A program made the translations under genes and the position numbers. From NCBI GenBank assembly GCA_963730605.1, contig CAVSSM010000001.1, positions 640,001 to 704,000 of the forward strand: DNA of 64,000 bases. The letters run 5' to 3'. The notes beneath the pieces are model-generated. The model saw nothing but the letters and a program-made list of their open reading frames with translations. It had not been told where the DNA came from and did no database searches. The DNA is from an uncultured Chlamydiae bacterium (lineage in GTDB: Bacteria; Chlamydiota; Chlamydiia; Chlamydiales; SM23-39). Positions 29,918 through 57,924 of this stretch are shown here, one piece after another (position 1 is the first letter of the stretch; every line of letters begins with the position of its first letter).

Positions 29918-32275
29918 TTATTTTCTAATCAAATTAAGTTGCCAAGTAAATCGGTCGTCTTTGTCTGTATGGCGATAGGAAAGACGGAGTTTTAGCGAGG
30001 TGGCGATCCAGGTGAAAAGGTCGAGTTGAAATTCGTTATAGGGATCTTCGGTCGATCGGAGAAACCCGTGATGGGACTGGAAATGGCATTCCCAAAAAGG
30101 GGAGAGACGGACAAAAATGTCGGTGAGGAGGGTCAGCCTCCGGTCGGAAAGAGGCGAGGCGAGAAGGTCGCTTTCCGAACGGGTGACGTCGAGGATGAAA
30201 TTTTCATGGTCCGCTTTGCGCCAGTCGTATTGGGAACGGTAGCGCGCTTCCAGGCTAAGCGCAATATTTTCATTGATCGTCCAACGACACCGGGCGTTCA
30301 TGAAGTCGTCCACATGATTCCGGAAGTTCCATGCGTTATGGAAGGATAGATAGACGGAAGCGAGGCGCCATTCGAGCCAAAGGTAGAGGCGGGGGATGAA
30401 CTGGGGAATGGTTGGGTTGGAAAAAAATGCGTTTGCATAGAGATCGGCCGTAAACCACGGTTCAAACACTTTGCTGACTTTTGTAAAAGTAAGACTGCGG
30501 ACCCCTCCCTGGATCTGGTTGATTTGGTTGTAGCCGTCCATGATCGAAAAGATATAGTGGTCATCGGGCCTGACTGTCGGACGGGTCAGGGCCAAAAACC
30601 CGGCATAAGGTTCGATGACATGCTGATTCTGGGAGTAGGACCTAACTCCTCTTGCGGCGAGGTCGGCCCCATAGACAAGGAGGCCAAGGGCTTTTGAGTT
30701 ATGCGATGCGCTATTGGTATAGAGCGTCCCGATCCCGCCGACGTTCGGGGTGAAGGTGACAGGGCCCCAATGGAAAGGGCGATGGAGCCTTTCCCGGATT
30801 TCAATACGCCCCGAGCGGTAATCCATGGGAGGCTTGAGGGTGGGCGTCGTGGCGAGCTGGTCAGAATAGGCGAAATCGAGGTAGGAGGCCTTTAGGAAGA
30901 GGCTAGACAGGATGCCGGTCGGCCCTAAGGTCATGGGTAGCAGATTGAGATAAAAAGTCGGCAAGTCTTGTTTGATCGACTCGAATGTGTTTAACCTAGG
31001 CCGGGCTTTAAAATTGGCGATGCAAAGCGGCGCCGCATGGTAAGCCCAAAAAAGGGTCTGCTGGGCTGTGCCGATTTCGAAATCTTCGCTCCTAAAATCG
31101 CTTGGCATCCGCACATCGCTATATTTATCCCAAGTCAATGCGGTATTGGTCCTCCCATCCTGGCTGCGCCAGTGATGAGCTCCTTCTAAGCGGAAACGGA
31201 ATTGTTTATTGGGCGCTGTTTCGAGCCGGTCTGTTCCTACATAGCTCCGTGTAACGAAGATGCTTTGCCCGTCCGGAGGGAAATATTCGCTTTCGATGGC
31301 TCCTCCCCAACCGGAGCTCCAACGGTATTCCACTCTTCCGAACAGGGCAAAATCACGCCAAGAATAAAGCTGATAGCGCATCCCGGCCCGCAAACCTTGG
31401 CCTCTATCCCAGTTGAGGAAATACCGGACGATCGGATCGCGGTTGCTTTTTTTCAGGTTCAATTTAAAGGAGGGGAGCCAAAAGGTGGGGATTTTATATA
31501 GGCGAAACGCGATGTTTTTCGCGATGAAAAGATCGGAGCTCTTAGCCTCAATGCGGCTCGCATGAAGGTCCCAATCGCTGTCTTTGTTTTCCGAGGCTGT
31601 AATGGAAGCGTTTTCCACCTCATAGCTGCCGTCGGCGTTCAATTCGATCCTCTCTCCCGAGATATACCAAAGGCTGAAAAACGTTTTTCCTTTGAACACG
31701 ACTCCAGTATTTGTCAGGAAATCGTATTCCAGCCTCTCGCCGACAAACACCCGATCTTTGTACTGGATCATCAAGTCGCCGGACGCTTCGATCCGATGTA
31801 TACTGTACGCGGTTGGCTTTTTAAAATTTGGACGGGCTGCGACTTCGTCAAATCGATCTGCTCCGCGAGAAAAACGGTCCATCCGAGGACCGTTTTTCTC
31901 GATTCCGCAGTCCTCGGAAATATTGCCTTCGGATATTTCCTTCGCCCCGTCCCCAAAAACGATGCGTTGTTTGGGGGCCCCTGGGGAGGTCGGTCGGACC
32001 GCTTCACTTCGATTTTGCTTTGTCTCGCTTGCGTCCAAATTTAAAAATCCTTCCCGCGTACAGTATATCTCCTGCCGATCTTCTTTTTTGCGGGTATATT
32101 CGATCTCCCTTGCTTGGATCCGGAGGTCTTTTGCTTTCACCACCCCTCCTTCATCGGTATAGATGACGCCGTTTCGGTAGGTGGGATTCCTCAAGTCGAT
32201 GACGACTCCCGAAGCGAAACAGTATCTCGCCGAAAGGCAGGCGCCAAGGAAAAGAAGAGTGAGGAGCGTTCGCAT
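29918..32275 (-). CDS. lptD: LptD/OstA-like outer-membrane protein with an 89-aa element-derived insertion
   Basis: Signal peptide, beta-jellyroll-like N-terminus (IEASGD, GERLEYDFLTNTG), long aromatic-rich barrel-like C-terminus. Confidence 0.65.
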   Translation of the reverse strand: MRTLLTLLFLGACLSARYCFASGVVIDLRNPTYRNGVIYTDEGGVVKAKDLRIQAREIEYTRKKEDRQEIYCTREGFLNLDASETKQNRSEAVRPTSPGAPKQRIVFGDGAKEISEGNISEDCGIEKNGPRMDRFSRGADRFDEVAARPNFKKPTAYSIHRIEASGDLMIQYKDRVFVGERLEYDFLTNTGVVFKGKTFFSLWYISGERIELNADGSYEVENASITASENKDSDWDLHASRIEAKSSDLFIAKNIAFRLYKIPTFWLPSFKLNLKKSNRDPIVRYFLNWDRGQGLRAGMRYQLYSWRDFALFGRVEYRWSSGWGGAIESEYFPPDGQSIFVTRSYVGTDRLETAPNKQFRFRLEGAHHWRSQDGRTNTALTWDKYSDVRMPSDFRSEDFEIGTAQQTLFWAYHAAPLCIANFKARPRLNTFESIKQDLPTFYLNLLPMTLGPTGILSSLFLKASYLDFAYSDQLATTPTLKPPMDYRSGRIEIRERLHRPFHWGPVTFTPNVGGIGTLYTNSASHNSKALGLLVYGADLAARGVRSYSQNQHVIEPYAGFLALTRPTVRPDDHYIFSIMDGYNQINQIQGGVRSLTFTKVSKVFEPWFTADLYANAFFSNPTIPQFIPRLYLWLEWRLASVYLSFHNAWNFRNHVDDFMNARCRWTINENIALSLEARYRSQYDWRKADHENFILDVTRSESDLLASPLSDRRLTLLTDIFVRLSPFWECHFQSHHGFLRSTEDPYNEFQLDLFTWIATSLKLRLSYRHTDKDDRFTWQLNLIRK
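31799..32067. mobile_element. 269-bp palindromic element (family B) inserted in frame in the lptD-like gene
   Basis: TATACTGTACGCGG / CCGCGTACAGTATA; inner TTTTAAAATTTGGACG / CGTCCAAATTTAAAAA; 269 minus TA = 267 bp = 89 codons. Confidence 0.9.
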
Positions 32276-47205: not shown

Positions 47206-47786
47206 GGAGTGATTTTTAATTTAAGCTGTTTGAGATGATCCATACACTTTTTCTCCATTTTGCGCATCGATCGTTTCGCATTGGGCTCAATATCATCGTA
47301 GCCAATCAGGTGGAGGATGCCATGGATGAGATAGAGAAGAGTCTCTTCATAGGGGCGGGCGGGATCGAAGCGTTGCGCCGCAAGAGGGCAGATAAAAATA
47401 TCCCCCAAATATACCGCGCGCGTCCAGTCTTGACAGGTTCTGACCGGCTGCGACTTTGCAGAATCGATCCTCGTCGTCGCCCTTCCCAATTCGGGAATGG
47501 TGCTCCTCCTGCGAATCAATTCTGCTTTGTCTCGCGCGGTCATAACATGCCAATCCTGACCGCGCGCAGTATGTACCGCGTCGACTGGAAAGGAGATGCA
47601 ATCGGTCAGGCTTGGGTCGTTAAAGAATTCAACATGTAGCTGGCAGATTTTTTTCTCAGAGACAAAATAAACAGAGATTTCTTCGCACTGAATGCGAAGA
47701 AATGAACACAACCCCCCTAATACTCTTCGAACGGAGCTTTTAGAAATGGGGAGAGCCTTTTGTCGATTGTATATATTGAAGTTCAC
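47202..47786 (-). CDS. ybeY: rRNA maturation endoribonuclease YbeY with a 54-aa element-derived insertion
   Basis: TDCISFP...LGDIFIC and HGILHLIGYDD motifs, separated by an extra 54 aa. Confidence 0.92.
   Translation of the reverse strand: MNFNIYNRQKALPISKSSVRRVLGGLCSFLRIQCEEISVYFVSEKKICQLHVEFFNDPSLTDCISFPVDAVHTARGQDWHVMTARDKAELIRRRSTIPELGRATTRIDSAKSQPVRTCQDWTRAVYLGDIFICPLAAQRFDPARPYEETLLYLIHGILHLIGYDDIEPNAKRSMRKMEKKCMDHLKQLKLKITP
47410..47573. mobile_element. 164-bp palindromic element (family B) inserted in frame in ybeY
   Basis: TATACCGCGCG / CGCGCAGTATG ends; 164 minus 2 = 162 bp = 54 codons; core shared with the lptD and mpg elements. Confidence 0.88.
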
Positions 47787-56985: not shown

Positions 56986-57924
56986 TTATCCGAAACTCGC
57001 ATTATTGAGAATTTTGAGTAAGGGGTCGTGGATATGGCCGTTTGTAGCGAGGATCGGATTTTTTCCATGAGCTAAAAAGGGGGTTTTGTCCCAATGGGTG
57101 ACCCTTCCTCCCGCCTCGGCAACGAGAAGCTGTCCTGCGGCACAGTCCCAAGGACTCAAGCTCACTTCGAAAAAACCTTCGAAATGGCCAGCCGCCGTAT
57201 AGGCGAGATCCAGGGCCGCCGAGCCGAGCCGGCGAATCGGGACGCCGAGCTTGAGGACGTCGATGAAATGATCGATGCAATGGAAAGGGTTGTCAGCAAG
57301 ATTATAGGGGAATCCTGTCGCTAATATCGATTCTTCGAGCCTTAAAACAGGCGAGACGCGGATGGGCTCGCCGTTCAAAAAGGCACCGTTGCCCAATTCT
57401 GCGACAAAAAGCTCATGATGGAGAGGCTGATAGACGACCCCGGTTTGGATCTGCCCGTTTTTCTCAAGCGCGATGCTGACTGAGAAGATGGGGATGCCGT
57501 GGGCGAAATTGACCGTGCCGTCTAGGGGATCGATGATCCAGAGGAGGTCATCTTCTCCCCAAAGACGATGCGTCTTTGGGGGCCCCTCCTCTTTTTCCTC
57601 TTCTTCTCCCCAAAGACGATGCGTCTTTGGGGGCCCCTCCTCTTTTTCCTCTTCTTCTCCCCAAAGACCATGCGTCTTTGGGGGCCCCGGTCCCGTAGCG
57701 CCGCTCTCTTCGGCAAGAAAGCGGGAGCCGGGGTCTATTTGCTTGAGCGCGCCGATGATGCTTTTTTCGGCTTTGATGTCATAGTCGGTGACGAGATTGT
57801 GCCTCCCTTCTTTCGAAGAGATGGTAAAACTCGTCCTGAACCCTTTGCGGAGAATAACGCCTGCCTCCAAAGCGGCGTCGATCGCTGCAAGTGTCAGGCG
57901 CGAGAATGTTTCTTTTTTAACCAA
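56986..57924 (-). CDS. suhB: Inositol monophosphatase (SuhB family) with a ~46-aa repeat insertion
   Basis: LVTDYD, LAEES, WIIDPLDGTVNF, RRLGSAALDL, WDCAAG; start uncertain (TTG at 57924). Confidence 0.92.
   Translation of the reverse strand: MVKKETFSRLTLAAIDAALEAGVILRKGFRTSFTISSKEGRHNLVTDYDIKAEKSIIGALKQIDPGSRFLAEESGATGPGPPKTHGLWGEEEEKEEGPPKTHRLWGEEEEKEEGPPKTHRLWGEDDLLWIIDPLDGTVNFAHGIPIFSVSIALEKNGQIQTGVVYQPLHHELFVAELGNGAFLNGEPIRVSPVLRLEESILATGFPYNLADNPFHCIDHFIDVLKLGVPIRRLGSAALDLAYTAAGHFEGFFEVSLSPWDCAAGQLLVAEAGGRVTHWDKTPFLAHGKNPILATNGHIHDPLLKILNNASFG
57551..57688. repeat. 51-bp tandem repeat (2.7 units), each unit containing the ~30-bp hairpin, in frame in suhB
   Basis: TCTTCTCCCCAAAGACGATGCGTCTTTGGGGGCCCCTCCTCTTTTTCCTCT at 57551, 57602 and 57653. 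Confidence 0.93.

What the first reader, a model, noticed from the sequence alone, without database searches (positions are those of the whole stretch)
31799..32067. LptD-like gene carries an 89-aa in-frame insertion from a nested, expanded element
Seen: a perfect 14-bp TIR with TA ends and a net addition of 267 bp. It shares GGCTGCGACTT...AATCGATC and TGCTTTGTCTCGC with the ybeY element but is about 105 bp longer. The middle holds extra hairpins (GAGAAAAACGGTCC/GGACCGTTTTTCTC) and one copy of the 30-bp hairpin repeat (31951-31981). Removing it restores KKEDRQEI-HRIEASGD. Inference: the elements grow by nesting modules while staying stop-free, here in the periplasmic part of a probable LPS-assembly protein.
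Basis: partly seen in the sequence, partly recalled or inferred. Interest (0 to 1): 0.82.

Follow-up and report, generated by a model that had tools for sequence, protein, structure and literature searches.

The report
Growing mini-transposon inside chlamydial LptD
A 267-base hairpin-shaped DNA insertion sits in frame in the outer-membrane LPS-transporter gene of an uncultured chlamydia; it likely jumped in as a mini-transposon, differs by a 16-codon module from the same insertion in a close relative, and is predicted to add a floppy 89-residue loop to a protein that likely still works, much like the palindromic elements of Rickettsia.

Summary
Confirmed. Window 31799-32067 is a 269-bp element (267 bp net) with perfect 14-bp TA-ended inverted repeats, in frame in the only lptD-like gene found in an environmental chlamydial genome (LptD fold, Foldseek E 1.7e-27). 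127 of 128 aligned orthologs lack it. It has three 96-100% identical copies, all in frame in unrelated genes, within a family of at least 85 TATAC-ended hairpin elements whose ends resemble IS630 transposons. It equals a 176-bp sister plus two modules (48 and 45 bp net). New here: a 96%-identical ortholog has the same insertion without the 16-codon module, and two other shared loci differ in modules between relatives, so resident copies are remodelled in place. Since insertion, 0 of 24 changes hit 164 conserved columns; the insert is modelled as a disordered periplasmic loop. Weak points: gain versus loss at lptD is unresolved, close empty lptD alleles read ATC rather than ATA, the best-matching transposase is not in this assembly, modules are often not frame-preserving elsewhere, and expression is untested. 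Behaviour matches Rickettsia palindromic elements; this scan noted the same family before, here and in other chlamydial genomes. New variant of a known kind.

The parts
29918..32275 (-). lptD-like (CT351-family) outer-membrane protein gene, 785 aa with the insert; signal peptide-like N-terminus, beta-jellyroll, beta-barrel
   Evidence: ORF; AlphaFold2 model; Foldseek top hits all LptD; NCBIfam CT351_fam E 5.5e-76 below its cut-off, PRK03761 E 2.3e-4; single locus in G000
31799..32067 (.). MITE-like palindromic element, 269 bp with both TA, 267 bp net = 89 codons read on the minus strand (residues 70-159)
31799..31834 (+). left arm; first 14 bp are the perfect terminal inverted repeat with TA; positions 8 and 9 carry changes private to this copy that are matched in the right arm
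32032..32067 (+). right arm (83% complementary to the left over 36 nt; perfect over the last 14)
31835..31858 (+). conserved left core shared with the ybeY element and elements of related genomes
31858..31910 (+). module A: 53-bp hairpin with CTGC...GCAG ends, net +48 bp (16 codons), in place of 5 bp of the shorter sister; absent from the orthologous insertion in P0001
31911..31943 (+). central hairpin of the basic element
31944..31988 (+). module C: 45-bp unit around the hairpin repeat at 31951-31981; absent from the G003 sister; core found about 107 times in the genome, also alone and in tandem
32008..32028 (+). conserved right core shared with the ybeY element
47410..47573 (.). 164-bp cousin element in frame in ybeY, without modules A and C

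Best explanation
The stretch is a gene-less, hairpin-forming element that sits in frame in the lptD-like gene and was likely moved there by an IS630-type transposase acting on its ends, and the cell likely tolerates it as an unfolded loop. Steps. (1) Shown: TA-ended inverted repeats, three near-identical copies at unrelated sites, empty orthologous sites. (2) Inferred: an IS630-family DDE transposase supplied in trans cut the element out or copied it and inserted it at a TA, duplicating it; at lptD the TA was the rare Ile codon ATA. (3) Shown: net length 267 and no stop in the gene's frame; inferred: this is a survival filter, since other outcomes in a needed single-copy gene would be purged. 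(4) Predicted: the 89 residues form a disordered loop at a strand-to-strand turn of the periplasmic jellyroll, a turn that varies between 5 and 12 residues in orthologs, so the LPS slide and barrel still fold. (5) Shown: the resident copy kept changing after insertion (module A present here, absent in P0001; paired changes in both arms). Inferred: modules move between related hairpins, most likely by recombination or gene conversion among the several hundred related repeats, and arms are kept complementary by arm-to-arm template switching.
For: Element anatomy and folding. Three copies, same frame and orientation in three unrelated genes, plus a fourth host protein P0128 elsewhere. Empty orthologs: 127 of 128; contigs of public runs joining across the element (X3; X6, X7). 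TA target: orthologous empty sites read TA in 14 of 29 and 5 of 6 alignments between G000 and G003; the genome's own IS630a has TA at 3 of 3 testable empty paralogous sites. IS630 link: full-length IS630 elements in G023 (L159) and G007 (L148) end in repeats that match one end of 7 of 85 elements at 27 of 27 positions beyond the TATAC seed; the lptD copy matches 15 of 27 and its sisters 17 of 27, against a median of 8 for 1892 genomic TATAC sites; 6 of 112 distinct element ends equal the first 16 nt of IS630a. Host still constrained: 24 differences in 663 sites between G000 and P0001, none in 164 columns at least 90% conserved, mean conservation 0.45 versus 0.68, 0 of 20000 random draws as low; lptF/G and lpxC are present with open frames. 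Loop model: pLDDT under 50 only at 68-155, flanking strands 88-97; insert alone pTM 0.14. In-place remodelling: P0001 shares the site and two residues private to the lptD copy but lacks 16 aa; C1:495566 is 236 bp in G000 and 164 bp at the same site in G003, and C9:163601 differs in modules from its G003 ortholog. Arm correction: 4 of 7 changes private to the lptD copy form two compensating pairs, and P0001's residues allow a perfect intermediate arm.
Against: No close empty lptD allele shows TA: X3, X6, X7 and X5 read ATC, and the G003 empty sites of both sister genes read xTC; a prior synonymous change to a rare codon (ATA 8%, CTA 6%) has to be assumed three times, and 15 of 29 empty alignments were not TA, several poorly aligned. 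The best-matching IS630 (L159) gave no tblastx hit in G000 at 1e-8 (assembly 83% complete), and the lptD copy matches the resident IS630a at only 8-11 of 21 positions. Low pLDDT for the insert is expected from its lack of homologs and does not prove disorder. Direction of the module A change at lptD is weak, P0001 is known only as protein, and the two paralogous copies already have module A. Two G000/G003 loci hold different elements at the same site, so independent insertion at one TA can happen. No RNA or protein evidence that the insert is translated.
Confidence: 0.72

Rival explanations
1. Same mini-transposon, but modules A and C are themselves independent mobile hairpins that insert into resident elements through an enzyme of their own (for example a single-strand HUH-type transposase), so the LptD loop grew by a second transposition event.
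For: Module A (54 matches to a strict pattern, 23 inside catalogued elements; a few probably chance) also occurs alone; at C2:315885 it replaces 5 bp at the tip of a small hairpin that is empty in G003. In several sister pairs it replaces a 5-6 bp CCTCC(T)-like stretch without duplication. Module C core has about 107 matches in many contexts, with tandem arrays.
Against: No enzyme linked: the only Y1 transposase match in G000 is partial (E 3e-5) and no module was seen in its printed flanks. All three G000 copies carry nearly the same module A at the same place, which one gain followed by transposition or conversion explains more simply. Inner sequences of module A vary widely.
Confidence: 0.3
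2. The element entered lptD at full length (with A and C), and the P0001 lineage later lost module A by hairpin deletion or by conversion from an A-less copy; elements shrink as often as they grow.
For: The A+C form is itself mobile (3 loci in G000 and P0128). A single 48-nt deletion plus 2 substitutions reproduces P0001. A-plus and A-minus forms coexist in run X4. Several sister indels lie between direct copies of module C and look like deletions.
Against: P0001's junction is one substitution from the A-less ancestral junction. At C1:495566 the G003 allele has the standard 164-bp form with a junction also seen in a paralogous copy, which a simple deletion of the 236-bp form would not give.
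Confidence: 0.3
3. The element is removed at the RNA level (self-splicing or nuclease processing of the long hairpin), so normal-length LptD is made and the open frame is incidental.
For: The ends pair into a long stable stem as RNA; arm complementarity is maintained by paired changes.
Against: No Rfam family above chance. Stops are strongly depleted: 6 against a mean of 16.5, 0 of 3000 shuffles as low; 965 against about 1200 family-wide. All three copies keep the host frame, which splicing would not need.
Confidence: 0.06
4. The gene is decaying or the junction is an assembly artefact of a collapsed repeat.
For: P0123 looks like a chimera of the lptD flank, the body of one sister and the flank of another, so short-read assemblies do mis-join these repeats.
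Against: P0001, from another source and 96% identical, has the element at the same codon; a contig of run X1 runs from lptD 5 bases into the element (may be the source sample, so weak); substitutions avoid conserved columns and G000 departs from none of them.
Confidence: 0.03

Closest known systems
Rickettsia palindromic elements (RPE; Ogata et al. 2000, 2002; not read; seen as summarised in PMC2229807 parts 1-2 of 3, and passages of PMC10969869 and PMC3733652)
   Same: Gene-less palindromic repeat with terminal inverted repeats and a long stem, inserted in frame in conserved genes of an intracellular bacterium; the reviews report a tested host enzyme (Gmk) staying active.
   Different: No match to NCBIfam models in either open frame; longer (269 versus 105-150 bp); IS630-like ends with a candidate mobiliser; variable internal modules that change at a fixed locus; Chlamydiae, not Rickettsia.
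RUP of Streptococcus pneumoniae with IS630-Spn1 (as summarised in PMC2229807)
   Same: TA termini, TA target, ends resembling an IS630 of the same lineage.
   Different: RUP is intergenic with stops in all six frames according to the review; this element has two open frames and sits in genes; its end match to the candidate IS is partial (15 of 27).
Correia/NEMIS elements of Neisseria (as summarised in PMC2229807)
   Same: TA-ended MITE with size classes that differ by an internal segment of about 50 bp; the short class fuses in frame to genes.
   Different: In Correia the long class has stops in all frames; here the added modules keep the frame, are several in kind, and also occur outside the element.
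LptD (LPS translocon; Klebsiella 5iv9, 4q35, E. coli 9kn3) and chlamydial CT351 family NF052235
   Same: Jellyroll plus large barrel; best structural matches are all LptD; lptF/G and lpxC present.
   Different: About 11% identity; no Pfam hit; below NCBIfam cut-offs, as are insert-free orthologs; 89-residue insert; LPS transport not tested.

Membership tests
MITE (TA-ended, IS630-mobilised type) | Terminal inverted repeats with TA at both ends | tested here: met
   14-bp perfect repeat, 36-nt arms
MITE (TA-ended, IS630-mobilised type) | Short, no transposase, several dispersed copies | tested here: met
   269 bp; 3 copies at 96-100%; no family match for either open frame
MITE (TA-ended, IS630-mobilised type) | TA target duplication shown by empty sites | tested here: inconclusive
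   Family-wide TA in 14 of 29 and 5 of 6 empty orthologs; but for the three copies of this element close empty alleles read xTC
MITE (TA-ended, IS630-mobilised type) | Ends match an autonomous IS630 | tested here: inconclusive
   Sister subfamilies match IS630a of G000 and IS630 of G023/G007 closely; this element 15 of 27 and 8-11 of 21
MITE (TA-ended, IS630-mobilised type) | Mobilisation in trans by the transposase | not testable with these tools
   needs a transposition assay
Rickettsia palindromic elements | Palindromic repeat inserted in frame in conserved genes | tested here: met
Rickettsia palindromic elements | Sequence homology to RPE families | tested here: not met
Rickettsia palindromic elements | Insert is transcribed and translated, host protein active | not testable with these tools
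   no RNA holder listed; constraint on the host is indirect
LptD | N-terminal beta-jellyroll plus large beta-barrel fold | tested here: met
   model pLDDT 84.8; Foldseek E 1.7e-27, TM about 0.6 to full-length LptD
LptD | Sequence-profile membership above curated cut-off | tested here: not met
   PRK03761 19.5 bits of 683, CT351_fam 256 of 900; no Pfam hit; profile search finds only 7omm LptD, E 0.0016; insert-free orthologs also fall short
LptD | Rest of the LPS pathway in the genome | tested here: met
   two LptF/G and one LpxC over cut-off; LptA, LptC and LptE not searched
LptD | LPS transport with LptE and LptA | not testable with these tools
   needs complementation or biochemistry
REP/RAYT or other HUH-mobilised repeats (for modules A and C) | GTAG/CGTC end tag and a linked tyrosine transposase | tested here: not met
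   module ends are CTGC...GCAG and CCCC...GGGG; one partial Y1 match, no modules seen beside it

The most novel reading that the evidence does not exclude
A two-tier parasite builds protein sequence stepwise: an IS630-driven mini-transposon opens a tolerated loop in an essential outer-membrane transporter, and a separate class of roughly 50-bp mobile hairpins, which replace 5-6 bases without duplication and have no known enzyme, then inserts into that resident copy and lengthens the translated loop by 15-24 codons at a time.
Probability: 0.3. Interest if true: 0.78.

Novelty: new variant of a known kind. Interest (0 to 1): 0.55.

Why it matters
How selfish palindromes become part of proteins has been open since the Rickettsia elements, whose mobiliser is not named in the reviews read. 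Here a candidate enzyme class can be named, and alleles of one conserved gene capture several states: empty (P0122 and run contigs), element with one module (P0001, 73 aa) and element with two (this genome, 89 aa). That makes the origin and growth of a new protein segment directly testable. It also predicts that the periplasmic jellyroll of LptD, the LPS slide, accepts a large insertion at one turn, which is a usable tagging site if confirmed. The basic phenomenon is known, and this scan has met it repeatedly, so the gain is the in-place remodelling rather than the insertion itself.

Tried and rejected
Pfam gave no family for the host and single-sequence PDB search gave nothing; identity came from profile, Atlas and fold. 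Rfam gave only two chance-level matches. No match in plasmid records. No RNA holder listed: no evidence either way on expression. Run contigs do not span the filled locus. The G003 lptD locus is split at a contig end, so it gave no allele. The idea that the true target is TC replaced by the element was considered; I set it aside because empty sites family-wide are mostly TA and the exceptions in good alignments are largely synonymous positions, but it is not excluded for this subfamily. A position-weight comparison with IS630a did not single out this element. The first codon-model census was too crude (2 internal, 5 N-terminal read-through calls of 85) and is not used for counts. The Pfam scan of the two sister host genes failed on a frame slip and was not repeated: 'O-antigen ligase-like' rests on PF04932 for P0127 (name recalled), 'SprT-like' on a recalled HExxH motif. 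P0123 was rejected as a likely chimera. No complex prediction was run.

Full report
Setting. The window is G000:C1:640001-704000 of a 2.2-Mb, 83%-complete assembly. Named records holding the closest lptD relatives are mostly uncultured Chlamydiae. The genome is rich in insertion sequences: 29 DDE_3 (IS630) matches in three multi-copy groups, 24 DDE_Tnp_1 matches and one partial Y1 transposase. 344 of 578 short repeated regions fall in one connected similarity group.

Observation. Window 31799-32067 has a perfect 14-bp inverted repeat with TA at both ends, 36-nt arms at 83%, an inner 15-bp hairpin and folds with z of about -9. It lies in the 785-aa frame 29918-32275 on the minus strand, starting at the second base of codon 70. 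Removing 267 bp leaves 696 aa. In one search, 61 of 66 ortholog rows covered the site (10 are duplicates between two searches) and all lacked it. In alignment A2 (the window protein, 111 of the 120 listed of 326 hits, and 17 loci), 127 of 128 orthologs have 5-12 residues between the flanking strands, one has 84, and the window protein has 100. Nine listed hits were left out as partial or long; the three long ones I read have no insert there.

Host gene. No Pfam hit. NCBIfam gives the CT351 family (E 5.5e-76) and LptD (E 2.3e-4), both under cut-off, as for insert-free orthologs. The family profile finds only LptD 7omm in the PDB (E 0.0016); Atlas neighbours carry LptD families on 11-73% of members. 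The AlphaFold2 model (mean pLDDT 84.8) is a beta-rich N-terminal domain plus barrel, with pLDDT under 50 only at 68-155, between strands 57-64 and 158-172; its best structural matches are all LptD (E 1.7e-27). The N-terminal jellyroll is the periplasmic LPS slide (PMC4493717, passages). It is the only such locus found; lptF/G and lpxC are present. The insert alone gives no confident fold, which is weak evidence given a single sequence.

Copies. Three copies at 96-100% identity exist, all read in the same frame and orientation in unrelated genes: lptD, after codon 1 of a gene with an HExxH motif (C1:383409, where a change in the downstream TA creates a new ATG), and near the start of a PF04932 membrane-protein gene (C1:635793). 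G003 orthologs of both lack the element. A fourth protein, P0128, ends in the same peptide. A search seeded on TATAC ends gave 85 elements after removing two long palindromes and adding two known copies; a looser one gave 94, of which 15 read through frames at least 140 codons longer than the element (only some checked against orthologs). Most copies are therefore not in-frame. Stops are depleted: 6 in six frames against a mean of 16.5 (0 of 3000 shuffles as low; two or more open frames in 91 of 3000), and 965 against about 1200 across 85 non-independent elements; 48 of 85 have a 3n net length.

Mobiliser. The 14 identical 1121-bp IS630a copies begin and end with TATACC, show varied flanks, and have TA at 3 of 3 empty paralogous sites. 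Six of 112 distinct element ends equal its first 16 nt, but the lptD copy matches only 8-11 of 21. Among 30 IS630 loci of relatives, two, in G023 and G007, are full-length elements whose ends match another subfamily exactly (7 of 85 elements at 27 of 27); the lptD copy reaches 15 of 27 and its sisters 17 of 27, where 1892 genomic TATAC sites have a median of 8 and 110 reach 15, the elements' own ends included. The G023 transposase has no tblastx hit in G000 at 1e-8. Against 1.26 Mb of G003 (87% nucleotide identity), empty orthologous sites read TA in 14 of 29 and 5 of 6 alignments. Against my reading: all close empty alleles for the three copies of this element read xTC, so a synonymous change to a rare codon must be assumed each time (codon use). 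I give the IS630 link about 0.7.

Modules. A 176-bp sister in G003 has the same arms and cores but lacks module A (net 48 bp) and module C (45 bp). Both occur in many other elements and alone. P0001, 96% identical, has the element at the same codon, shares two residues private to the lptD copy, has module C and lacks the 16 residues of module A; P0122 in the same 90% cluster is empty. Run X4 holds A-plus and A-minus forms. At DNA level, of four filled sites shared with G003, one differs by a 72-bp module containing an A-type hairpin, one differs in inner modules, and two hold different elements. So resident copies change their modules. At lptD the direction is open: P0001's junction is one substitution from the A-less form and two from the best deletion product. 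Among 59 distinct sister indels of 20 bp or more, 28 are 3n, 19 are 3n+1 and 12 are 3n+2 (overlapping, some alignment artefacts), so frame-keeping is not built in. Module A tends to replace 5-6 bp without duplication; no enzyme was found for it.

After insertion. Between G000 and P0001, both filled, 24 of 663 sites differ outside the insert, none in 164 highly conserved columns, and the changes sit in variable columns (0 of 20000 draws as extreme); G000 departs from no such column, while six insert-free orthologs depart at 0-5. The gene is thus likely still functional. Four of seven changes private to the lptD copy form two compensating arm pairs, and P0001's residues permit a perfect intermediate arm (from protein only); arm-to-arm template switching is my inference from general knowledge of quasi-palindrome repair.

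Comparison and novelty. It works like a Rickettsia palindromic element and is built like an IS630-type MITE such as RUP; Correia elements give a precedent for a 50-bp optional module (PMC2229807 parts 1-2; PMC10969869 and PMC3733652 passages). It is not shown to be homologous to any of them. Searches found no description in Chlamydiae, within an open-licence library only. Earlier notes of this scan report the same family in this genome and others and in-frame repeats in LptD of other bacteria; my reading was set before seeing them and I tested the points I use. Verdict: real, a new variant of a known kind; interest 0.55, carried mainly by the allele series and in-place remodelling.

Noticed in passing
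G000:C1:383409-383677 (L162): Sister copy inserted after codon 1; a change in the downstream TA creates a new ATG right after the element, which could restore a near-native N-terminus.
   Followed up: partly
G000:C11:54199-54362 vs L241:1155-1417; G000:C7:4636-4953 vs L212: The same site holds different elements in G000 and G003, suggesting reused hot spots or wholesale replacement.
   Followed up: no
G000, families listed: Other 130-340 bp palindromic families have ends like other resident IS types (for example GAACCTATCC/GAGCCTATCC like the IS5-type element, TAACCTGAGTTTTG like the element at C9:129500-130660); one sits inside a transposase gene and elements nest in each other.
   Followed up: no
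G000:C1:317822-318046; window 57556-57688; G000:C7:8767-9010: Tandem arrays of the module C hairpin with periods of 45, 51 and 36 bp.
   Followed up: no
one search list: C1:144490, C1:495566, C2:111384, C2:152290 and the three 269-bp copies: Seven in-frame copies with long arms are all read in the same orientation and phase, giving a recurring Y-x-x-x-[ED]-G-F start; ybeY uses another phase.
   Followed up: no
window 31799-32067 translation: The insert brings two cysteines into the periplasmic domain, one from module A, while the host lacks the cysteine of the family's TTCENK motif (reads TASENK).
   Followed up: no
window about 32216-32231: A 9-bp in-frame addition in the signal-peptide region relative to close alleles (P0001, runs X3 and X6).
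   Followed up: no
P0123: 119-aa protein joining the lptD flank, one sister's body and another sister's flank; probably an assembly chimera.
   Followed up: partly
G000:C1:720293-720795, C10:9746-10434, C8:4113-4725: Near-perfect long palindromes of 500-700 bp inside gene-like sequence; may be assembly artefacts or real inversions.
   Followed up: no
G000:C1:286579-287916, C4:95-1432, C8:29864-31201: Three near-identical reverse-transcriptase frames with a YADD motif, like group II intron proteins (label recalled).
   Followed up: no
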